Assembly: GCA_001189095.1 (NCBI GenBank)
Contig: LFCK01000002.1
Span: forward strand, 131,650 to 195,649
Source of the DNA: Parcubacteria bacterium C7867-001
GTDB lineage: Bacteria > Patescibacteriota > Minisyncoccia > Phycocordibacterales > Phycocordibacteraceae
Direction of reading: 5' to 3'
DNA length: 64,000 nt
The translations under genes and the position numbers were made by a program. Numbering within the stretch: position 1 is the stretch's first letter; each line of letters starts with the position of its first letter. Under the pieces are notes generated by a model. The model did not search any database and was not told the origin of the DNA. It saw only the letters and a program-made list of their open reading frames with translations. Below, in pieces: positions 27,451-42,598 of this stretch.

Positions 27451-27469
27451 GCAGAATTGCCGAAGACAG

Positions 27470-27505
27470 CACAAAACCGCCCCTTGAGGGGCGGTTTTGC
27501 GTTTG
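27470..27505 (+). terminator. intrinsic terminator (AAAACCGCCCC-TTGA-GGGGCGGTTTT)
   Basis: Sits where rplC would normally follow rpsJ. Confidence 0.6.
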
Positions 27506-27547
27506 ATTCGTCTTAATGATTAAGTGCAAGGAGAAAAGGAGAAAGAG

Positions 27548-27760
27548 ATGCAGTTCAAAACAGAAGCAGAGCGTGCCGAAGCGCGGGATACGGCGCTTAA
27601 AGCCGAAGCTGCAGCGGCCTACCTTAGGGCATGCGTTGATAATTCGCATATCAATGCAGGGCTTCCCGTCATCGATCGGCAGTTCACGGTGCCGCAAGCT
27701 CTTGAAAAGGGTCTGGCGCTTGCTCGAAAGATGGCGACAGAACAAGACTTCGTCGGATAA
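27548..27760 (+). CDS. small hypothetical protein A (70 aa, helical, Ala/Glu-rich)
   Basis: Long purine-rich SD AAGGAGAAAAGGAGAAAGAG before ATG. Confidence 0.5.
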   Translation: MQFKTEAERAEARDTALKAEAAAAYLRACVDNSHINAGLPVIDRQFTVPQALEKGLALARKMATEQDFVG

Positions 27761-27769
27761 CCAAGTCCA

Positions 27770-27805
27770 AAATCAACCGCCCCAGAGCACTGGGGCGGTT
27801 TTGCA
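27770..27805 (+). terminator. intrinsic terminator (CAACCGCCCCAG-AGCAC-TGGGGCGGTT TTGC)
   Basis: Same stem sequence as the two neighbouring terminators. Confidence 0.55.
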
Positions 27806-27866
27806 TCGTTTTCTTTTTGTCTCGCAGATGCTTTACTTCTTCGCAGACTAGGAAAGGAGGTGCGCT

Positions 27867-28166
27867 ATGGCACTTACGGTCGATGAATTCATGGAAGTCC
27901 TGCGAATCGAGAAAAAGCTCGAAAATCGCGAGGAACTCACGCCTGAAGAGCAGTCGTTCGCGAAGGAGTATAACTGCACCGGTCCCACGCCTTGCGGTTG
28001 CGGAACCAACTGCGGTCTCTTCCTCGAGCCGCGCGTCGATGGCGAACGTCCTATGCTTAACGGCAAGGAAGTGAACCCCGATTGCTACTGGCGCGAACAC
28101 GACAAGGATGCGCCGAACGTTATCGGTCGCGGACGTCGCGGCGGTCGCGGTGCCTACGGCGACTGA
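27867..28166 (+). CDS. small Cys-containing protein B (99 aa; CTGPTPCGCGTNCG cluster and C-terminal RGRRGGRGAYGD tail)
   Basis: Excellent SD GAAAGGAGGTG before ATG; five Cys; RGG-like basic tail. Confidence 0.5.
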   Translation: MALTVDEFMEVLRIEKKLENREELTPEEQSFAKEYNCTGPTPCGCGTNCGLFLEPRVDGERPMLNGKEVNPDCYWREHDKDAPNVIGRGRRGGRGAYGD

Positions 28167-28167
28167 C

Positions 28168-28210
28168 CTACAACCGCCCCAGCTTTGCTGGGGCGGTTTG
28201 CTTTTGTCCG
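28168..28210 (+). terminator. intrinsic terminator (CAACCGCCCCAGC-TTTG-CTGGGGCGGTTTG CTTTTG)
   Basis: Third copy of the AACCGCCCC/GGGGCGGTT stem. Confidence 0.55.
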
Positions 28211-28251
28211 GTTTCGTGATATAACATAGGTGGAAATGGAGGAAGGCCAAT

Positions 28252-28542
28252 ATGACACTTGGCGAAGTAATCAACGACTTCATCTTGTCACTCGTCGTAA
28301 AGGTCCTTCCGCACGAACGCAAGCGTGTCGAGCGGAAGATAAAGACCTTTAACGAGATGCACATTCAAACCCTGAAGGAGATGGACGAAATCGAGCGACG
28401 CTCGGCGGCTGGCATCGTCAGTCCCGAGCAGGCGCTTGAAGCGAATGTGAGAAAGGAAGAGGAGCTCTGGAACCAAGAAGAGGAAATCCGGAGACTCGCG
28501 TTTTTCCTCGGCATCCCCTTCGAAACAGCGGCGGCGCTCTAA
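28252..28542 (+). CDS. small hypothetical protein C (96 aa, charged and helical)
   Basis: SD GGAGGAAGG before ATG; hairpin (AAGCCGCGGCTCCCTCTGGGATCCGCGGCTT) downstream. Confidence 0.45.
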   Translation: MTLGEVINDFILSLVVKVLPHERKRVERKIKTFNEMHIQTLKEMDEIERRSAAGIVSPEQALEANVRKEEELWNQEEEIRRLAFFLGIPFETAAAL

Positions 28543-28662
28543 GCCCGCCCATAAGCCGCGGCTCCCTCTGGGATCCGCGGCTTCGCTCTTATCTAGGAAT
28601 CAGCTGCCTTGCACCCCTACGGGTACCCAGCGGCTTTGCCCCTCGTCAGGTACCCGGCTGCC

Positions 28663-28691
28663 TTGCACAAAAATGACCCTTCCGGTATAGT
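28663..28691 (+). promoter_or_regulatory. sigma70-like promoter for rplC: TTGCAC-17 nt-TATAGT, followed by a ~100-nt leader
   Basis: A second copy of the -35-containing segment (CAGCTGCCTTGCAC) lies 54 bp upstream; the leader could carry an L4-type autoregulatory structure. Confidence 0.5.
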
Positions 28692-28794
28692 CCGTGGGTC
28701 GCTACGTACACCTTTCGGGTGGACCAATGGCCGGGAACGTCCCTCTTGTTGGGGACCGGAACGCGCTGTTGTACAGCGCGAAATTTTTTACCTC

Positions 28795-31415: not shown

Positions 31416-31455
31416 AACAAAAAGCCCCGCTTTCGCGGGGCTTTTTGTTTCTGCT
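31416..31455. terminator. bidirectional terminator (AAAAGCCCCGC-TTTC-GCGGGGCTTTTTG)
   Basis: Lies where rpsS would normally follow rplB; convergent with a minus-strand gene. Confidence 0.65.
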
Positions 31456-31456
31456 T

Positions 31457-32116
31457 TTATGATGGCGGATGCTTTTCCTCGTAGAGCTTTACGATCTCGC
31501 GAACGAATTTCCGATCACGCTCCTTGTTTTCGTCAGTGAGTTTCTCGTATGGATCAAGCTGGTCAATGAGATCGGTAAGTCGTGCATCTGCTCGAGCAGC
31601 TTCTTCGTTGGCGAAACCACCTTGCTTCATGCGAATGCTAATTTCTCGCTTCAGGTCCTCCCCGTTACGGAGGAACCACTGTTCGTGTATTGCGTTGGCA
31701 GTTGCATCAATGAATGTCTCGTTGAGCGGCGTTCCATTGCGCGCCGCTCGGTATACGGATTCGATCGCGTAGTCATAGCTTGCGAGCGAGTCTTCCTGTC
31801 GGCTGGGCGGAAGTTCGTCGAACGAGTATGACGCAATGTCGACTGCAGGAACCGCTTCATCTCCGAAATCAGGATCTTTTCCTACGCGCTCCGGATGTTT
31901 CTTCATCCACATCCCGTCCTGCTCTGCGTGCAGCGGCTTGAAACGAGATTTGATAGTTTCGGTCCCGTCGGGGTTCTGTATGCGCCGACCCTCTCGGTAT
32001 TTCTCATGGTTCGCGCTCGCTTGAGTGCGGAAACCGGCAATCATCTCCTTTTCCTCAATAGACAGAGGGCTCACCTCCTTTTTTTTGCTGCCTCCCATGA
32101 ATCGTTCGAAAAACAT
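31457..32116 (-). CDS. hypothetical protein (219 aa, charged, no TM)
   Basis: Long ORF; last gene of a three-gene minus-strand insert within the S10 cluster. Confidence 0.5.
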   Translation of the reverse strand: MFFERFMGGSKKKEVSPLSIEEKEMIAGFRTQASANHEKYREGRRIQNPDGTETIKSRFKPLHAEQDGMWMKKHPERVGKDPDFGDEAVPAVDIASYSFDELPPSRQEDSLASYDYAIESVYRAARNGTPLNETFIDATANAIHEQWFLRNGEDLKREISIRMKQGGFANEEAARADARLTDLIDQLDPYEKLTDENKERDRKFVREIVKLYEEKHPPS

Positions 32117-32163
32117 ACTAGTGCTGTAACTGATAATGCTCTAACTATAAACGGAAGCTGCCA

Positions 32164-32994
32164 CTACTGGTACTTAGTTTTAAGAATTGCCTTGAGGTCG
32201 GAGAGGGGAATGCGAAGGGTTTGCGGACCGGCGGCGTACGCAGCAACTTGATACGGCGGGAAGAGAATAACGAGTGTTTTTCCATCGAGATAGAAACTTT
32301 GGAAATTGTCGCCGTCTGCGGAAGCTCCGTCATTGATGGCCTGCATGTCGACCTGTGAGATCGAGACACCTTCTGCTTTTGCGATGATTGCGGGAAGTTT
32401 TGCTCGAGCGAGCGAGGATATCTTTCCGAGGTAGTCGCTGTTCGGGGTGAAGAGGTCGCCAAACAATACGCCGGCTCCTGTTGCCGAATCGAAGGTAAAG
32501 GTGCGGTAGAACCCGTTACCGTGCGCACCGAGGGTATCTTCATAGATATCGAGCACGTAGGAGATGGTCATTGGTGAAGTGTAGAGTTTGTAGTCGATTG
32601 TGAGCGTGTATTTGCGGCCCTGATCGAGTCCTTGAATCTTGATATCTTCTGCGGTGAGATTTGCGAAATTGCCGTTCTCCTTGAAGCTTTCTATGGTGTT
32701 CTGCTCGAATCCTTTGATTGCGCTTACTGCGCGCTGATCCGCGAGCGCTCCAGCGGTCTTTTTGAGCGGTGTCTCACCAGGGTAGGACGTCGAGATGTCG
32801 TAATATTTTCCGTTCTCTTCGATGGATTTGGGTCCAATCGCAGATACGCTTCCTTCGTCGGTCGAGGTTGCGGTTTCAGACGGACGAGTAAATACGGAAA
32901 GAAGCGGCGACCACGATGGATAGGTGATGTAGAGGCCTTCGCCGACAACGAGGAGGATAAGAACGATAACAAGCGGCGATTTGAGGTGTTCCAT
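32164..32994 (-). CDS. DUF4163/DUF3298 (RsiV/PdaC-like) domain protein with N-terminal TM anchor
   Basis: N-terminal TM helix; C-terminal ...ILFPPYQVAAYAAGPQTLRIPLSDLK matches the DUF3298 signature. Confidence 0.6.
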   Translation of the reverse strand: MEHLKSPLVIVLILLVVGEGLYITYPSWSPLLSVFTRPSETATSTDEGSVSAIGPKSIEENGKYYDISTSYPGETPLKKTAGALADQRAVSAIKGFEQNTIESFKENGNFANLTAEDIKIQGLDQGRKYTLTIDYKLYTSPMTISYVLDIYEDTLGAHGNGFYRTFTFDSATGAGVLFGDLFTPNSDYLGKISSLARAKLPAIIAKAEGVSISQVDMQAINDGASADGDNFQSFYLDGKTLVILFPPYQVAAYAAGPQTLRIPLSDLKAILKTKYQ

Positions 32995-33063
32995 ATCACC
33001 CCATCTTAGCGCACGGAACATGAAGGAAATGCAAAGCCCCGCGCGTAGCGCGGGGCTGTATGG

Positions 33064-33630
33064 TTAGACGCCGAGACGTTTCCTTTGTTTGCGAAGGCCG
33101 ACGAGCCCACGATGCTCTTCGAGCACCTCGCGTTCAGCTCGAGCCTGAAAAATCTGATCGAGCGAGTATTGTCTCGTCGAATACAGGAAGTTCCCACCGA
33201 TGGAGAGTGCCCGCTGCCATTCGGCGTCGAGCATCGCTCCAAAGATTTTAATCTCCGGGTGCTGCTTGTAGGGCTTGTCCTGAGCTGCGAATCCGAGATG
33301 GGACGTATCGGGAATCTTGAAGTGATTCGCGACCGTTCCGTACATAACGTAGTTCGTTCCGGGATTCGCAAGGTCCGGCCTTGATTCGAAGGCGAGCGCA
33401 AGCACGCACTCGTTGTCGTAGCTGTCGTGCGCACGGAATCGGCAGGTGCCGTCCTCCTGTGGCTCGAACATGTTTCGGTGCCAACCGGCAGGAGCGTGCT
33501 CCCGAAGCCATTTGATGCCGCGAGCGACACGGCGCTCGGTAAGGAGCCTGCTCAGTCGATCAGGATCAGTACGCCGGAGCCGAAGATACTCGAGCGATTT
33601 CGCCAAAATTTCCTCTTTTGAGGGTTTCAT
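33064..33630 (-). CDS. hypothetical protein (188 aa)
   Basis: Strong SD TAGGAGGT 6 nt before ATG (start taken at MKPSKEEIL); GC hairpin downstream at 33034..33057. Confidence 0.5.
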   Translation of the reverse strand: MKPSKEEILAKSLEYLRLRRTDPDRLSRLLTERRVARGIKWLREHAPAGWHRNMFEPQEDGTCRFRAHDSYDNECVLALAFESRPDLANPGTNYVMYGTVANHFKIPDTSHLGFAAQDKPYKQHPEIKIFGAMLDAEWQRALSIGGNFLYSTRQYSLDQIFQARAEREVLEEHRGLVGLRKQRKRLGV

Positions 33631-33858
33631 TGAATACCTCCTAAGGTTCAACCTAAGCGAAACCCTAGCATGGGGAGCACCGTTTGACACCCATACGCTT
33701 TTCCTATAGATTGCTCCTATCCGCAAACACGCGGGTTCTGGCCGCTTCTGGCCTTAGGGAGCCTAAACGCTTTCAAAAACCGAGCTTCTGCACCGTATAG
33801 CGGTCGTTAGCTCGGCCGAATTTGTTTAACCCAAAAACCACTTTTACCTACCCAATTC

Positions 33859-36847: not shown

Positions 36848-37381
36848 ATGATGCTTTCAAAACAAAAACAGCAGACCGCCTTCGAAGCGCTTTCCGAATC
36901 GCAGGGCTACACCAACCGCATGGCGGCTCCCCGCATCATGAAGGTTATTGTGTCGTCAGGTGTTGGTAAGAAGCGTGACAAGAACCAGCTCGCGCTCGTT
37001 GAGGATCGCCTTACCCGCATCACCGGCCAGAAGCCGTCGGCTCGTCCGGCAAAAGCGTCTATCGCACAGTTCAAGATGCGCGAGGGCGACATTGTCGGTT
37101 TTCAGGTGACCATGCGCGGTGGTCGCATGTACGACTTCCTCGATAAGCTCATCCACATCGCGCTTCCGCGCACACGCGACTTCCGCGGCATCAACACGAG
37201 TGCCGTCGATGATATGGGCAACCTCACCATCGGACTCCGCGAGAACACCATTTTCCCAGAGACCGCAGACGAAGACCTTAAGGACGTGTTCGGTCTTGCT
37301 GTCACGGTCGTTACGACCGCGAAGACGAAGGAAGAAGCACTCGCATTCTTCCGCCACTTGGGGATACCATTTCAGGCCTAA
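36848..37381 (+). CDS. rplE: 50S ribosomal protein L5
   Basis: uL5 core (NRMAAPRIMKVIV..., FRGI). Confidence 0.93.
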   Translation: MMLSKQKQQTAFEALSESQGYTNRMAAPRIMKVIVSSGVGKKRDKNQLALVEDRLTRITGQKPSARPAKASIAQFKMREGDIVGFQVTMRGGRMYDFLDKLIHIALPRTRDFRGINTSAVDDMGNLTIGLRENTIFPETADEDLKDVFGLAVTVVTTAKTKEEALAFFRHLGIPFQA

Positions 37382-37393
37382 GCTAGGCCACCG

Positions 37394-37432
37394 TTTGAAA
37401 ACGCGGCGCCGTAAGGCGCCGCGTTTTCGCTT
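37394..37432 (+). terminator. intrinsic terminator (AAAACGCGGCGCC-GTAA-GGCGCCGCGTTTTCGC)
   Basis: Sits where rpsN would normally follow rplE. Confidence 0.6.
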
Positions 37433-37495
37433 GACGTATTTCCTAAGAGGAATAGCGTTAGCGGTACCTTCAGCCAACCAACAAGGGAGGAAGAC

Positions 37496-37921
37496 ATGAG
37501 GGTACTGCTGGTAGCGTTCGCGTGCTGCATCGGGTATGCCCCGTTCGCAGCTGCGCAAACGAACGATCTTTCGATAGAAGTTGCAATCGACGTGCCGAAA
37601 ATCGCGACCGTCGATCCTGACCCGATCAAGCTCAAAATCGATGTCGGGTACGAACGGCGCACGCCGGACAACGAGAAGGAATGGTATCTCGAGGAGCGGC
37701 GCCCAAGCTTCATCGGACCGCAAACCGAATACCTCGCCATCTCGGCTCCGGTCTGGAAACCGTCCGAAAATACCGAGGTGAAGGCGTGGCGCATCAGCAC
37801 CAAGGCGCGCGGGGACCCGTTCCCGTACGAGAACCTCAGGATTCCTGATGGCTCGCCCGACGTGCTTGGCCGTGTGGAGGAGAAGTCCTTCTACGGCATC
37901 AGCTTCACGTGGCGGCACTGA
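37496..37921 (+). CDS. small secreted hypothetical protein (141 aa; signal peptide MRVLLVAFACCIGYAPFAAAQ)
   Basis: SD GGGAGGAAG before ATG; cleavable signal peptide; hairpin terminator downstream. Confidence 0.55.
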   Translation: MRVLLVAFACCIGYAPFAAAQTNDLSIEVAIDVPKIATVDPDPIKLKIDVGYERRTPDNEKEWYLEERRPSFIGPQTEYLAISAPVWKPSENTEVKAWRISTKARGDPFPYENLRIPDGSPDVLGRVEEKSFYGISFTWRH

Positions 37922-37926
37922 AAACT

Positions 37927-37956
37927 GGCCCAGCGCATAGCGCTGGGCCGCCCTTA
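37927..37956 (+). terminator. intrinsic terminator (GGCCCAGCGC-ATAG-CGCTGGGCC GCCCTTATTTTG)
   Basis: 10-bp stem plus T-rich tail. Confidence 0.5.
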
Positions 37957-37988
37957 TTTTGAGCCATATAATCCCTCCGTCCCTTGGT

Positions 37989-38017
37989 TTGACAGGGCGT
38001 CTCCTAATTGATAGATT
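37989..38017 (+). promoter_or_regulatory. sigma70-like promoter for rpsN: TTGACA-17 nt-TAGATT
   Basis: Consensus -35 and acceptable -10, about 30 nt before the rpsN ATG. Confidence 0.5.
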
Positions 38018-38045
38018 ACGGGGACGCGAAAGCGGCTTTTTATTT

Positions 38046-38315
38046 ATGGCAAAACGCTCTCAATTGGCCCGAAATGCAAAACGAGTAAAGCTCGTGGCGC
38101 GTTTTGCTGCCAAGCGAGCAGCCCTCAAGGAGGCAGGGGATGCAGAGGGGCTCCAGAAGCTCCCACGCAACTCGAGCCCGACCCGCGTCAAGAACCGCTG
38201 CTCGATCTCAGGACGTGGTCGCGGCTATCTCCGCGCCTTCGGCCTCTCCCGCATCCAGTTCCGCGAGCTCGTCCGCGAGGGTAAGATTCCGGGCGTTAAG
38301 AAAGCCTCTTGGTAA
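38046..38315 (+). CDS. rpsN: 30S ribosomal protein S14 (long, non-zinc form, 89 aa)
   Basis: [17 protein letters not shown]... C-terminus [27 protein letters not shown]; start is internal to the longer ORF. Confidence 0.9.
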
Positions 38316-40690: not shown

Positions 40691-41971
40691 ATGTCTCCGA
40701 TCTCGACCTTCTTCCATAAGCTCAAGCTCGTCTTCACGGATTCAGCGATTCGTAACCGCCTTCTATTCGTCGCAGCTGCGTTCGTCGTCTTCCGCTTTTT
40801 GTCCGCGGTTCCCATTCCGGGCATCGACCATTTCGCGCTCGAGCAATTCTTTTCGAATAATCAATTCTTCGGCCTCCTCTCGATTTTCTCGGGCGGCGGT
40901 TTTGCGCAGCTCTCTATCGTGATGCTCGGCGTCGGTCCCTACATCACCGCGTCCATCATCATGCAGCTCGCAACCGTCATCTCATCGAAGGTGAAGGCGA
41001 TGTACACGGAAGAAGGAGAGGCAGGACGCACGAAGTTCATCGCGCTTTCTCGTACCATCACCATCCCACTCGCCATTCTTCAGGGTGTTGCGTTCCTCTC
41101 GCTTCTTGAGAGTCAGGGAATTATCACGAGCCTCACGCCGTTCGCGTTTGCTGTGAACGTCTTCCTTATCGCGGCCGGTTCGATGCTTCTCATGTGGATG
41201 GGCGAACTCATGACCGAATTTGGTATCGGCAACGGCGTTTCCCTCATTATCTTTGCGGGAATCATCTCAGGTCTTCCTGCAGGTATTTCCCAGACTATTT
41301 TCACCGCGACAGCGGCAGATATTCCGGCATACCTCGGATTCTTCATCCTCGCGCTCGCTGCTATTTACGCGGTCATCATGGTTTCCGAAGCTGAGCGTTC
41401 GATTCCTATCGCCTACGCGCGTCAGGTCCGTGGTGCCGCTGCAGCTACTGGCGCAGCAACCTATCTCCCGATCCGTCTTCTTCAGGCTGGCGTGATTCCT
41501 ATTATCTTCGCGCTCTCACTCCTCCTTCTTCCGCAGATGGCGCTTGCAGGCCTCTCGGCTATTGGGGTTCAGGGTATATCCGGTGTTGTCTCCGCATACA
41601 CGGCCTTTACGAACAATCCATGGGCACACAGCGCGGTTTACTTCGTGCTTGTGGTTATCTTCACGTATTTCTACACCTCTATTACCTTCGAACCGCATCG
41701 CGTCGCCGATAACCTTCAGAAGTCGGGTGCATTCATTCCGGGTGTTCGTCCGGGTCGCGAGACCGAAGCCTACATTGGTAATGTGGTGAATCGCGTCACC
41801 CTTCCGGGCGCAGTCTTCCTCGGTGCGATCGCGGTCGTTCCGTTCGTTGTGCAGGGTATTACCGGCATCACCGCGATTCTGGTCGGCGGTACGGCACTTC
41901 TCATCGCGGTCACGGTACTCCTCGACCTCATCCGAAAAATAGACGCACAGATTTCGCTCCGCGAATACTAG
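40691..41971 (+). CDS. secY: preprotein translocase subunit SecY
   Basis: 10-TM protein with SecY signature; start taken at MSPISTFF, not the upstream in-frame Met overlapping rplO. Confidence 0.93.
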   Translation: MSPISTFFHKLKLVFTDSAIRNRLLFVAAAFVVFRFLSAVPIPGIDHFALEQFFSNNQFFGLLSIFSGGGFAQLSIVMLGVGPYITASIIMQLATVISSKVKAMYTEEGEAGRTKFIALSRTITIPLAILQGVAFLSLLESQGIITSLTPFAFAVNVFLIAAGSMLLMWMGELMTEFGIGNGVSLIIFAGIISGLPAGISQTIFTATAADIPAYLGFFILALAAIYAVIMVSEAERSIPIAYARQVRGAAAATGAATYLPIRLLQAGVIPIIFALSLLLLPQMALAGLSAIGVQGISGVVSAYTAFTNNPWAHSAVYFVLVVIFTYFYTSITFEPHRVADNLQKSGAFIPGVRPGRETEAYIGNVVNRVTLPGAVFLGAIAVVPFVVQGITGITAILVGGTALLIAVTVLLDLIRKIDAQISLREY

Positions 41972-42002
41972 AAAAAGCCGGCCACACGCCGGTTTTTTCA
42001 TT
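41970..42002 (+). terminator. intrinsic terminator (AAAAAGCCGGC-CACAC-GCCGGTTTTTT)
   Basis: Hairpin plus T-run after secY. Confidence 0.6.
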
Positions 42003-42019
42003 TATGCTAGATTAATCAC

Positions 42020-42598
42020 ATGACTGACACACCCAAGACCGTTTTCTTCATCGGTAAGCCGGGCTCCGGAAAGGGGACTCAGGCGAAGCTTCTCGCAGCC
42101 AAGACGGGCTGGACCATCCTTGCCTCAGGCGCCCAGTTTCGAGAGATAGCGAAGGAAGAGAGCTTGCTTGGTCGGAAAGTTGAAGAAGCGCTTGCACAGG
42201 GTCTCCTCATGCCGCACTGGTTCGCGATGTATCTCTATCAGCGCGCGCTCTTTTCCGTGCCGGAGGACCAGAGCATTGTCTTCGATGGTTTCAATCGTAA
42301 GCTTGCGGAAGCGGAACTCAACATCGCAACGCTCGAGTGGCTCGGACGTCCGTTCGTGGTACTCAATATTCAGGTATCGGACGAGCATGTAAAGGAGCGT
42401 CTCGCTGAGCGAGCGAAGACCTCCGGCCGTTCGGACGATCGTCAGGATGCCTTCGACGAGCGCCTCGATGAATACCGTGCACATACCACGCAGTCCATCG
42501 ACCTCTTCCGCGAGAAGCACTCACTCATTGATATTAATGGCGAACAGACGCCGGAGGAAGTCTTTGCGGATATCTGCAAAGCGCTCAATTTAGAATGA
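42020..42598 (+). CDS. adk: adenylate kinase (short form, no zinc lid)
   Basis: GKPGSGKGTQ P-loop, NMP-binding and short LID regions. Confidence 0.9.
   Translation: MTDTPKTVFFIGKPGSGKGTQAKLLAAKTGWTILASGAQFREIAKEESLLGRKVEEALAQGLLMPHWFAMYLYQRALFSVPEDQSIVFDGFNRKLAEAELNIATLEWLGRPFVVLNIQVSDEHVKERLAERAKTSGRSDDRQDAFDERLDEYRAHTTQSIDLFREKHSLIDINGEQTPEEVFADICKALNLE

What the first reader, a model, noticed from the sequence alone, without database searches (positions are those of the whole stretch)
37394..38045. Secreted 141-aa protein gene inserted between rplE and rpsN, with its own terminator and a fresh promoter for rpsN-secY
A signal-peptide protein (MRVLLVAFACCIGYAPFAAAQ...) sits at the L5/S14 junction and is bracketed by two hairpin terminators. 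It is followed by TTGACA-17-TAGATT about 30 nt upstream of rpsN. In many bacteria S14-S8 translation is coupled to L5, so this interruption is unusual.
Basis: seen in the sequence. Interest (0 to 1): 0.5.

Follow-up and report, generated by a model that had tools for sequence, protein, structure and literature searches.

The report
Orphan gene in ribosomal operon gap
A small, probably exported protein gene with no relatives anywhere sits between ribosomal genes rplE and rpsN of a tiny groundwater bacterium. It occupies a gap that already separates two transcription units throughout this bacterial group and that collects different genes in different lineages.

Summary
Window = Parcubacteria bacterium C7867-001. 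rplE ends at 37381, followed by a strong hairpin (37397-37428). A 141-codon ORF runs 37496-37921 with a GGGAGG ribosome-binding site and a signal-peptide-like N-terminus. A second hairpin (37927-37949) follows, then TTGACA-17-TGATAGATT (37989-38017), 28 nt before the true rpsN ATG (38046).

The ORF looks coding (codon score, phase-specific GC p=6e-7). It has no homologue among 1.84 billion representative proteins.

The "fresh promoter" reading is wrong. In 160 related loci a TTGAC-N16-18-TAnnnT motif lies within 200 nt upstream of rpsN in 79% and of rpsS in 86%, versus 0-3% for the other 14 genes. It is present with or without an insertion. In compact relatives the -35 lies inside rplE and the rplE stop codon TGA supplies the extended -10 TG.

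The L5|S14 spacer is the one variable junction from S19 to SecY: median 296 and 283 nt in two sets, up to 5.7 kb, others 4-12 nt. L2|S19 is a second such junction. Cargo differs even between genomes 92-95% identical in rplE.

So the ORF is a lineage-specific cassette in an ancestral operon break. Promoter, terminators and export are inferred, not measured.

The parts
33684..33712 (+). Promoter-like TTGACA-17-TAGATT upstream of rpsS. Predicted start of the rpsS...rplE transcription unit.
   Evidence: The equivalent motif lies within 200 nt upstream of rpsS in 86% of 106 related loci.
36848..37381 (+). rplE (uL5), last gene of the upstream unit.
   Evidence: Pfam Ribosomal_L5 and L5_C. 56-79% identical to 160 relatives.
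37397..37428 (+). Hairpin T1, the predicted intrinsic terminator of the rpsS-rplE unit. 14-bp perfect stem, GTAA loop; the U run is partly inside the 3' arm.
   Evidence: I1; dG -29.5. Analogous A-tract/hairpin/U-tract elements follow rplE within 10-30 nt in L007, L004, L019, L010, L012, L013, L020, L031 and L032.
37431..37458 (+). Weak candidate promoter of ORF141: TTGACG-16-TAGCGT.
   Evidence: Read from the sequence. It falls below the scan threshold. Cargo genes in relatives show comparable promoter-like sites just after T1 (L020, L032). Inferred only.
37485..37490 (+). Shine-Dalgarno GGGAGG, 5 nt before the ORF141 ATG.
   Evidence: Only about 10% of ORFs in the window have a 5-mer SD (5.5% at random positions). 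The r-protein genes have none.
37496..37921 (+). ORF141: a 141-aa orphan protein. Residues 1-20 look like a Sec signal peptide (R2, hydrophobic 3-17, AAA|Q). The mature part is about 14 kDa, acidic (pI 5.1), hydrophilic and without Cys.
   Evidence: codon score 0.30 against 0.29+-0.17 for trusted genes; GC1/2/3 0.58/0.45/0.76, p=6e-7. No homologue. No Pfam, NCBIfam or PDB hit.
37926..37960 (+). Hairpin T2 plus CCCTTATTTT, the predicted terminator of ORF141.
   Evidence: dG -22.9; I6. A hairpin directly before the rpsN -35 is present in most cargo-bearing relatives examined, e.g. L004, L012, L013, L019, L025.
37989..38017 (+). rpsN promoter: -35 TTGACA (37989-37994), 17-bp spacer, extended -10 TGATAGATT (38009-38017).
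   Evidence: TTGAC and TGATA...T are invariant in 21 aligned relatives. The motif is upstream of rpsN in 79% of 101 loci, against 0-3% for other genes.
38024..38045 (+). Predicted 22-nt rpsN leader: TSS near A38024, 5' hairpin CGC-GAAA-GCG (38025-38034), U-rich tract (38037-38045), no SD.
   Evidence: A hairpin plus U tract is predicted in all 21 relatives folded; -10 to ATG is 28-34 nt. The hairpin sequence varies (GCUC-UUCG-GAGC, GGCUC..., CGC-GAAA-GCG).
38046..38315 (+). rpsN (uS14, long Zn-free form, 89 aa), first gene of the rpsN...secY unit.
   Evidence: Pfam Ribosomal_S14. N-terminus conserved in 28 relatives.
41971..41999 (+). Terminator-like hairpin plus U run after secY. Predicted end of the rpsN-secY unit.
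   Evidence: dG -18.4. adk follows with its own -10 box 6 nt before the ATG.

Best explanation
The rplE-rpsN spacer holds a self-contained, lineage-specific gene cassette sitting in a pre-existing gap between two ribosomal-protein transcription units.

Proposed transcription layout:
- The rpsS...rplE unit starts at the promoter at 33684 and ends at hairpin T1.
- ORF141 is expressed from a weak promoter of its own and/or from read-through of T1. It is translated from a strong Shine-Dalgarno site, exported through Sec with cleavage after Ala20, and terminated at T2.
- rpsN...secY is then transcribed from its own strong extended -10 promoter. Its short leader consists of a 5'-terminal hairpin, probably stabilising the mRNA, and a U-rich SD-less translation start region like those of the other r-protein genes here.

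Promoter and leader are ancestral in this Parcubacteria clade. Because rpsN expression never depended on rplE, the junction tolerates insertions and has become a hot spot where unrelated accessory genes are gained and replaced. ORF141 is this lineage's occupant.

Shown: the sequence elements, coding statistics, lack of homologues, conservation of promoter and leader, and hot-spot statistics. Inferred: promoter activity, termination, export, and what the protein does (most likely a small envelope or secreted accessory protein).
For: Anatomy.

Coding character of ORF141:
- In-frame codon score is 0.30, against -0.36 to 0.15 in the other five frames, and against 0.29+-0.17 for trusted genes.
- Phase-specific GC gives p=6e-7.
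- It has an SD in a genome where SDs are rare.

Ancestral promoter and leader:
- The alignment of 21 relatives has invariant TTGAC and TGATA...T.
- In 36-40 nt spacers the -35 lies inside rplE and the stop codon TGA supplies the extended -10 TG.
- The motif is upstream of rpsN in 79% of loci and of rpsS in 86%, against 0-3% for the other 14 genes.
- Only the last 60-100 nt of spacers are conserved between relatives.
- A hairpin plus U tract sits at constant distance, with varying hairpin sequence.

Hot spot:
- L5-S14 gap median is 296 nt and 283 nt in two independent sets, with 13/60 and 12/41 above 1 kb. All other S19-SecY junctions have medians of 4-12 nt. In the genome set none exceeds 300 nt; in the metagenome set one L14-L24 gap reaches 326 nt.
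- Cargo is unrelated between loci and mostly without Pfam domains. It includes HicAB, MazF, methyltransferase and TruB.
- L010, L012 and L013 are 92-95% identical in rplE but carry different cargo.
- One cargo family stays at this site in three lineages with dN/dS about 0.18.
- The two relatives with the most similar L5, L003 and L007, have the promoter (L007 also a terminator) but no ORF.
Against: - No transcript, TSS, proteomic or export data exist for this uncultured organism.
- ORF length alone is not significant (P=0.078 in shuffles).
- No orthologue allows a selection test on ORF141 itself. The two other assemblies carrying it are 100% identical.
- AlphaFold single-sequence models are unreliable (pLDDT 43-45).
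- T1's U run is short and partly base-paired. T2's U run is offset by 3-4 nt. Termination efficiency is therefore unknown.
- The candidate ORF141 promoter is weak: the -10 TAGCGT matches only 3 of 6 consensus positions.
Confidence: 0.7

Rival explanations
1. ORF141 is not a real gene. The 664-nt spacer is non-coding filler, or a decayed remnant, between terminator and promoter, and the ORF, SD and hydrophobic N-terminus are coincidental.
For: - No homologue anywhere.
- ORFs of at least 141 codons arise in 7.8% of shuffled spacers.
- A relative (L007) has a terminator-promoter spacer with no ORF at all.
- Structure prediction is uninformative.
Against: - The codon score equals that of trusted genes, and only in this frame.
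- GC3 is 0.76 against GC2 0.45, p=6e-7.
- A GGGAGG sits at ideal spacing in a genome with few SDs.
- There is a dedicated terminator.
- A comparable cargo ORF at the same site in relatives is under purifying selection.
Confidence: 0.2
2. The cluster is still one operon. T1 and T2 are leaky terminators or RNA-stability and processing hairpins. rplE, ORF141 and rpsN are largely co-transcribed, and the rpsN promoter only tops up downstream expression.
For: - T1's U tract is only 4 nt and partly paired. T2's U tract is displaced.
- Compact relatives have no terminator between rplE and rpsN (36-40 nt spacers; also the 71-nt spacer of L003), so read-through is the default there.
- ORF141 has only a weak promoter of its own.
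Against: - T1 and T2 are more stable than the terminator after secY.
- Strong A-tract/hairpin/U-tract elements follow rplE in most relatives with expanded spacers.
- The rpsN promoter is a near-consensus extended -10 promoter, conserved as strictly as the one before rpsS.
Confidence: 0.3
3. One reading: a recent insertion (horizontal transfer or a mobile element) split a coupled L5-S14 unit, and a new promoter arose or was brought in to rescue rpsN-secY expression.
For: - ORF141 is absent from every relative sampled.
- The cassette carries its own terminators.
Against: - The promoter and leader are conserved in relatives without any insertion, and lie partly inside rplE in compact loci.
- There are no terminal repeats, target duplication or transposase.
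- ORF141 codon usage is native.
Confidence: 0.05
4. The hairpin plus U tract at the start of the rpsN transcript is a regulatory attenuator, or a binding site for S14 or S8 (autogenous control), rather than a passive 5' stabiliser.
For: - The GC hairpin followed by a U run resembles a minimal intrinsic terminator and is conserved in position.
- The same design precedes rpsS.
- More distant relatives add a 110-nt conserved structured element with compensatory changes before rpsN.
- No Rfam family covers any of these.
Against: - The stems are only 3-5 bp (dG -1.7 to -7.2).
- U-rich tracts precede the start codons of many of the r-protein genes in this cluster, including tightly packed internal ones (e.g. 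L16, L14, L5, S8, L18). The U run is therefore more simply the translation start region.
- No alternative (antiterminator) pairing is evident.
Confidence: 0.15

Closest known systems
E. coli spc operon (rplN-rplX-rplE-rpsN-rpsH-...-secY) with S8 translational feedback at rplE (PMC3616713)
   Same: Same genes in the same order from L14 to SecY. secY is co-located with the r-protein genes.
   Different: In E. coli the unit starts at rplN, and rpsN onwards is translationally coupled to rplE. Here no promoter motif precedes rplN (0% of relatives). The boundary lies at L5|S14, with terminator, promoter and up to 5.7 kb of cargo between the two genes. L30 is absent, as in all CPR (PMC9297842).
[quoted passage not shown]
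   Same: Foreign genes can enter the cluster. rpsN is the most dynamic gene of the spc operon: two isoforms, loss from the cluster, and replacement by recombination across rplE-rpsN-rpsH in S. pneumoniae.
   Different: Of the four insertion events that paper analysed in detail, three lie between operons and one inside the rpoBC operon (rplL-rsmC). All are single historical events. Here one intra-'spc' junction is variable in most genomes of a clade, and its content turns over between genomes 92-95% identical in the flanking gene.
Chromosomal integration hot spots or 'islets' between conserved core genes (general concept, from my own knowledge, not tested against a paper here)
   Same: Conserved flanks, highly variable cargo including toxin-antitoxin modules and orphan genes, and rapid turnover.
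   Different: There is no integrase, tRNA or repeat at the site. The hot spot lies inside the most conserved gene cluster of the genome, next to a conserved promoter.
5'-terminal stem-loops that stabilise bacterial mRNAs (e.g. E. coli ompA, B. subtilis aprE leaders; from my own knowledge)
   Same: A short hairpin within a few nucleotides of the predicted 5' end, followed by an unstructured translation start region.
   Different: Not tested here. The stems are very short (3-5 bp) and are followed by a U run, which also resembles a terminator.

Membership tests
Sec (signal peptidase I) signal peptide | Positively charged n-region | tested here: met
   Arg2 follows Met1.
Sec (signal peptidase I) signal peptide | Hydrophobic h-region of about 10-18 residues | tested here: met
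   VLLVAFACCIGYAPF. Mean Kyte-Doolittle hydropathy is 2.21 over 15 residues from residue 3.
Sec (signal peptidase I) signal peptide | Small residues at -3 and -1 (AxA) with a polar mature N-terminus | tested here: met
   A18-A19-A20 | Q21-T-N-D. No predictor such as SignalP was available, so there is no score.
Sec (signal peptidase I) signal peptide | Demonstrated export and cleavage | not testable with these tools
   Needs proteomics or a reporter fusion.
Bacterial lipoprotein signal (lipobox) | [LVI][ASTVI][GAS]C with the Cys about 15-35 residues from the N-terminus | tested here: not met
   The only cysteines are C10 and C11, preceded by A-F-A, too close to the N-terminus and with no L/V/I at -3.
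Sigma-70 extended -10 promoter | -35 TTGACA, 17-bp spacer, TGn, -10 TAnnnT | tested here: met
   37989-38017: TTGACA-17-TAGATT with TG at 38009-38010.
Sigma-70 extended -10 promoter | Conservation of the elements, but not the spacer, in related genomes | tested here: met
   TTGAC and TGATA...T are invariant in 21 loci while spacer and discriminator vary. 79% of 101 loci carry the motif, against 0-3% upstream of other genes.
Sigma-70 extended -10 promoter | Mapped transcription start | not testable with these tools
   No transcriptome was available for this organism.
Intrinsic (Rho-independent) terminator | Stable GC-rich hairpin | tested here: met
   T1 has 14 bp and dG -29.5. T2 has 10-11 bp and dG -22.9.
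Intrinsic (Rho-independent) terminator | Run of U immediately after the stem | tested here: inconclusive
   T1: UUUU forms the end of the 3' arm, followed by CGCUU. T2: CCCUUAUUUU, with the U run offset by 3 nt. T2 passes the scan; T1 does not.
E. coli-type spc operon | Promoter before rplN and contiguous, coupled rplE-rpsN | tested here: not met
   There is no promoter motif near rplN in the window or in relatives (0% of 139). rplE and rpsN are 664 nt apart with two hairpins and a promoter between them.
Insertion sequence / mobile element | Terminal inverted repeats, target-site duplication, and a transposase or integrase | tested here: not met
   Only the two hairpins and short chance repeats were found. 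ORF141 has no family hit.
Known ribosomal-protein leader RNA (Rfam) | Match to a curated covariance model | tested here: not met
   No hit at gathering score in the window or in 12 relatives. The best sub-threshold hit, L20_leader at 20.9 bits against a gathering score of 58.7, overlaps T1.

The most novel reading that the evidence does not exclude
In this Parcubacteria (Paceibacteria-like) clade the r-protein supercluster has been re-partitioned into blocks: ...L2 | S19...L5 | S14...SecY. Each block is headed by a conserved promoter and hairpin leader. The two block boundaries act as dedicated, highly transcribed landing pads where lineage-specific orphan genes are captured, or even born de novo, and quickly replaced. 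On this reading ORF141 is a young, host-interaction-type secreted protein that arose at such a pad.
Probability: 0.2. Interest if true: 0.7.

Novelty: new variant of a known kind. Interest (0 to 1): 0.42.

Why it matters
The S10-spc cluster is the most conserved gene array in bacteria and is the standard marker block for placing uncultured lineages. Three results bear on that.

- A large CPR clade has moved the operon boundary to L5|S14 and L2|S19.
- It hides a promoter inside the rplE coding sequence.
- It uses those two junctions as fast-turnover sites for orphan genes.

This changes how these loci should be annotated. rpsN starts are mis-called, and contigs may be wrongly suspected of chimerism at these points. 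It also gives a defined, easily found genomic site at which to study how accessory or new genes enter streamlined symbiont genomes.

For the single gene in the window the consequence is modest: a hypothetical exported protein worth testing in proteomes.

Tried and rejected
Attempts that gave no information on ORF141:
- Homology searches returned only the protein itself: the word-indexed 5.8-billion database and exhaustive HMMER against 1.84 billion representatives.
- Pfam, NCBIfam and PDB sequence searches gave nothing.
- AlphaFold2 on the full protein and on the mature part gave pLDDT 43 and 45. No fold search was run, because it would be meaningless at that confidence.
- The other assemblies carrying ORF141 (L001, L002) are 100% identical over 10-17 kb, so there is no polymorphism for a selection test.
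- A metagenome scan for closer relatives found none above 76% L5 identity.
- The Rfam e-value scan of the spacer gave only sub-threshold noise on T1.
- The repeat search found no mobile-element signature.

Readings considered and rejected:
- Lipoprotein: no lipobox.
- The minus-strand ORFs 37378-37803 and 36956-37918: poor codon scores, and they are shadows of the plus-strand genes.
- A promoter brought in by the insertion: contradicted.

Literature searches found no description of this junction in CPR.

Full report
**What is there**

The window comes from the groundwater MAG "Parcubacteria bacterium C7867-001" (source paper PMC4508563). It is a Candidate Phyla Radiation organism with a genome of about 0.8 Mb.

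The region holds the S10-spc ribosomal protein cluster. It lacks L30, as in all CPR.

The elements, in order along the + strand:
- rplE ends at 37381.
- Sixteen nucleotides later comes a perfect 14-bp hairpin, T1 (37397-37428, dG -29.5).
- A 141-codon ORF runs 37496-37921, preceded by GGGAGG 5 nt upstream.
- A second hairpin, T2 (37927-37949, dG -22.9), has the tail CCCTTATTTT.
- TTGACA-17-TAGATT lies at 37989-38017 with a TG two bases before the -10.
- rpsN begins at ATG 38046, not at the GVG... GTG 38094 chosen by gene callers. The N-terminus [10 protein letters not shown] encoded from 38046 is conserved in 28 relatives.

**Is ORF141 a gene?**

Length alone does not settle it. ORFs of at least 141 codons arise in 7.8% of dinucleotide shuffles of the spacer.

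The other evidence is positive:
- The in-frame codon-usage score is 0.30. This equals the mean of 40 trusted genes of the window (0.29+-0.17) and is well above the other five frames, which score -0.36 to 0.15.
- GC by codon position is 0.58/0.45/0.76, chi-square p=6e-7.
- It has a strong SD, although only about 10% of ORFs here have one and none of the r-protein genes do.
- The N-terminus has the n/h/c layout of a Sec signal peptide: R2, hydrophobic residues 3-17, AAA|Q.
- The mature part is about 14 kDa, acidic, hydrophilic and free of cysteine.

The protein is a true orphan. It matches only itself in the 5.8-billion-cluster database and in an exhaustive HMMER search of 1.84 billion representatives. 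There is no Pfam, NCBIfam or PDB match. AlphaFold models are unreliable. Two other public assemblies carry an identical locus, so there is no variation to analyse.

**The promoter is not new**

I fetched 80 related loci from species-representative genomes and 80 from metagenomes. They share 55-79% L5 identity and all belong to Parcubacteria-type CPR.

Twelve of them have only 36-40 nt between rplE and rpsN. Eleven of these share the sequence ...GTTGACTcgggcgtaaaacgcTGATATTCT-N6-ACGCTCYTCGGAGCTTTATTTTTT-ATG. In this arrangement:
- the -35 (TTGACT) is inside the rplE reading frame;
- the rplE stop codon TGA supplies the TG of an extended -10;
- the -10 follows immediately.

In relatives with longer spacers, the window included, the same module lies at the rpsN-proximal end of the spacer. 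In an alignment of 21 loci, TTGAC and TGATA...T are invariant, while the spacer and the six bases after the -10 vary freely.

From the -10 to the ATG is 28-34 nt. This stretch holds a 3-5-bp tetraloop hairpin near the predicted 5' end and a U-rich run up to the AUG. The hairpin sequence differs between lineages: GCUC-UUCG-GAGC in most, CGC-GAAA-GCG in the window.

Pooling all 160 loci, a TTGAC-N16-18-TAnnnT motif lies within 200 nt upstream of:
- rpsN in 79% (71% with TGn);
- rpsS in 86%;
- each of the other 14 genes from L22 to SecY in 0-3%.

The promoter call rests on this comparative signal. It does not rest on motif counts in the window, which are not above chance (5 full motifs in 64 kb).

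**The junction is a clade-wide hot spot**

Between S19 and SecY every intergenic gap has a median of 4-12 nt. In the genome set none exceeds 300 nt; in the metagenome set one L14-L24 gap reaches 326 nt. L5-S14 is the exception:
- In the genome set the median is 296 nt, 43/60 are above 100 nt, 13/60 are above 1 kb, and the maximum is 5748 nt.
- In the independent metagenome set the median is 283 nt, 29/41 are above 100 nt and 12/41 are above 1 kb.

A second such junction is L2-S19: median 838 nt, and 2443 nt in the window.

Only the last 60-100 nt of the L5-S14 spacers (promoter plus leader) are alignable between relatives. The cargo has these properties:
- About three quarters of the ORFs are co-oriented with the cluster.
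- They are unrelated from locus to locus.
- Ten of ten ORFs from the closer relatives lack any Pfam domain.
- Others encode HicA/HicB, MazF-like toxins, a nucleotidyltransferase, a methyltransferase, a cytidylate-kinase-like protein plus TruB, or a ParB-N protein.

L010, L012 and L013 are 92-95% identical in rplE and 89-94% identical in rpsN. They nevertheless share only the final 71-98 nt of their spacers and carry three unrelated ORFs.

The L010 ORF has just two homologues in the whole database. Both lie again directly upstream of the conserved rpsN promoter, and dN/dS is about 0.18. Orphan-like cargo at this site can therefore be genuine protein-coding genes. The L013 ORF has a single homologue.

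Most relatives with expanded spacers have an A-tract/hairpin/U-tract element just after rplE and another hairpin just before the rpsN -35. The two relatives with the most similar L5 have no ORF at the site. L003 (71 nt) has the promoter only, and L007 (157 nt) has a terminator plus the promoter.

**How it most likely works**

- The rpsS-rplE unit ends at T1.
- ORF141 is a monocistronic cassette. It may use the weak promoter-like site TTGACG-16-TAGCGT (37431-37458) and/or read-through of T1. It has an SD-led start and ends at T2.
- rpsN-secY is driven by its own ancestral promoter. Its leader begins with a small hairpin, most simply a 5' stabiliser. The U-rich tract matches the SD-less start regions of many of the other r-protein genes.
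- The unit ends at the hairpin after secY (41971-41999), after which adk has its own -10 box.

Because rpsN never depended on rplE for transcription or translation in this clade, insertions at the junction are harmless to ribosome stoichiometry. This explains why the site accumulates and exchanges accessory genes.

The function of ORF141 is unknown beyond a probable exported or envelope location.

**Comparison with what is known**

In E. coli the spc operon starts at rplN, and S8 represses rplE together with the translationally coupled rpsN-rplO (PMC3616713).

Brandis 2021 (PMC8046335) describes rare insertions in the cluster and a dynamic rpsN in Bacilli (two isoforms, loss from the cluster, and a replacement by recombination in S. 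pneumoniae). Of the four insertions analysed there in detail, three lie between operons and one inside the rpoBC operon. The case here differs in three ways:
- a shifted operon boundary;
- a promoter overlapping rplE;
- systematic, rapid cargo turnover.

I found no description of this in the searched literature. No Rfam family matches the leaders.

**Verdict**

The gene itself is an ordinary, already deposited hypothetical protein. The interest lies in the clade-wide architecture it reveals. All activity claims (promoter, terminators, export) are inferences from sequence and conservation.

Noticed in passing
window 31416-33858 (and L2|S19 junctions of L003-L082): A second hot spot. rplB and rpsS are 2443 nt apart in the window, with three minus-strand genes between them (31457-32116; 32164-33021, a DUF3298/RsiV-like protein; 33064-about 33630). 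In relatives the L2-S19 gap has a median of 838 nt, and 50/54 are above 100 nt. L3-L4, L4-L23 and L23-L2 are tight.
   Followed up: partly
window 33684-33858; the rpsS upstream regions of about 20 relatives: Upstream of rpsS there is a conserved promoter (TTGAC[AT]-17-TAnnnT). It is followed by CCTATCCCGC-loop-GCGGGCTTTTCATTG...ATG, the same promoter/hairpin/U-rich design as before rpsN, with 34-39 nt from the -10 to the ATG. The window and L004 instead have leaders of about 145 nt with extra hairpins.
   Followed up: partly
L066:6576-6713, L059:6563-6706, L051:4093-4239, L045:6590-6737, L060:8073-8206, L056:6939-7089, L044:9225-9402: Relatives with the short (Zn-type) S14 carry a conserved 130-150-nt leader between promoter and rpsN. 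It has a 5' hairpin GCCUCGUAGGGGGC plus a U run, then a multi-helix element with invariant CACG, UAA, GCA and a near-invariant CUCCUU. RNAalifold predicts 27 pairs, 11 of them with compensatory changes. There is no Rfam match. A second leader type occurs in L058, L079, L061 and L064. These are candidate new ribosomal-protein leader RNAs.
   Followed up: partly
window 27451-28794: rpsJ and rplC are separated by 1344 nt, against a median of 38 nt in six relatives. The gap holds two small ORFs (27867-28166 and 28252-28542). Both have strong SDs (AGGAGG, GGAGG) and good codon scores, and neither has an NCBIfam hit. This looks like a third, lineage-specific interruption of the cluster.
   Followed up: partly
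window-wide, e.g. 42005-42022 (adk), 261, 1636, 6775, 8363, 12927, 57003: Many genes have a -10-like box (TAnnnT, often preceded by TGn) ending 6-7 nt before the ATG, which suggests leaderless mRNAs. The r-protein genes have no SD, and many have a U-rich stretch before the ATG (e.g. TAATATTTTCGT-ATG at L16). Only about 10% of ORFs have an SD. Three modes of translation initiation seem to coexist.
   Followed up: partly
window 38046-38315: The rpsN start is mis-called by automatic gene prediction: 73 aa from GTG 38094 in the Logan contig annotations. The conserved N-terminus shows the 89-aa protein starts at ATG 38046. This S14 is the long, cysteine-poor (Zn-independent) form, whereas more distant relatives have the short CxxC form at the same position.
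   Followed up: yes
window 56020-56437 (-) and 59394-59467 (-): A tmRNA gene (98.8 bits) and a tRNA gene. One of the five full consensus promoters in the window (56636-56607, minus strand) lies about 170 nt upstream of the tmRNA.
   Followed up: no
L010 vs L012 vs L013 spacers: Three genomes that are 92-95% identical in rplE carry completely different terminator-plus-ORF cassettes at the L5|S14 site. This implies cassette replacement, presumably by recombination in the conserved flanks, on a short evolutionary time scale.
   Followed up: partly
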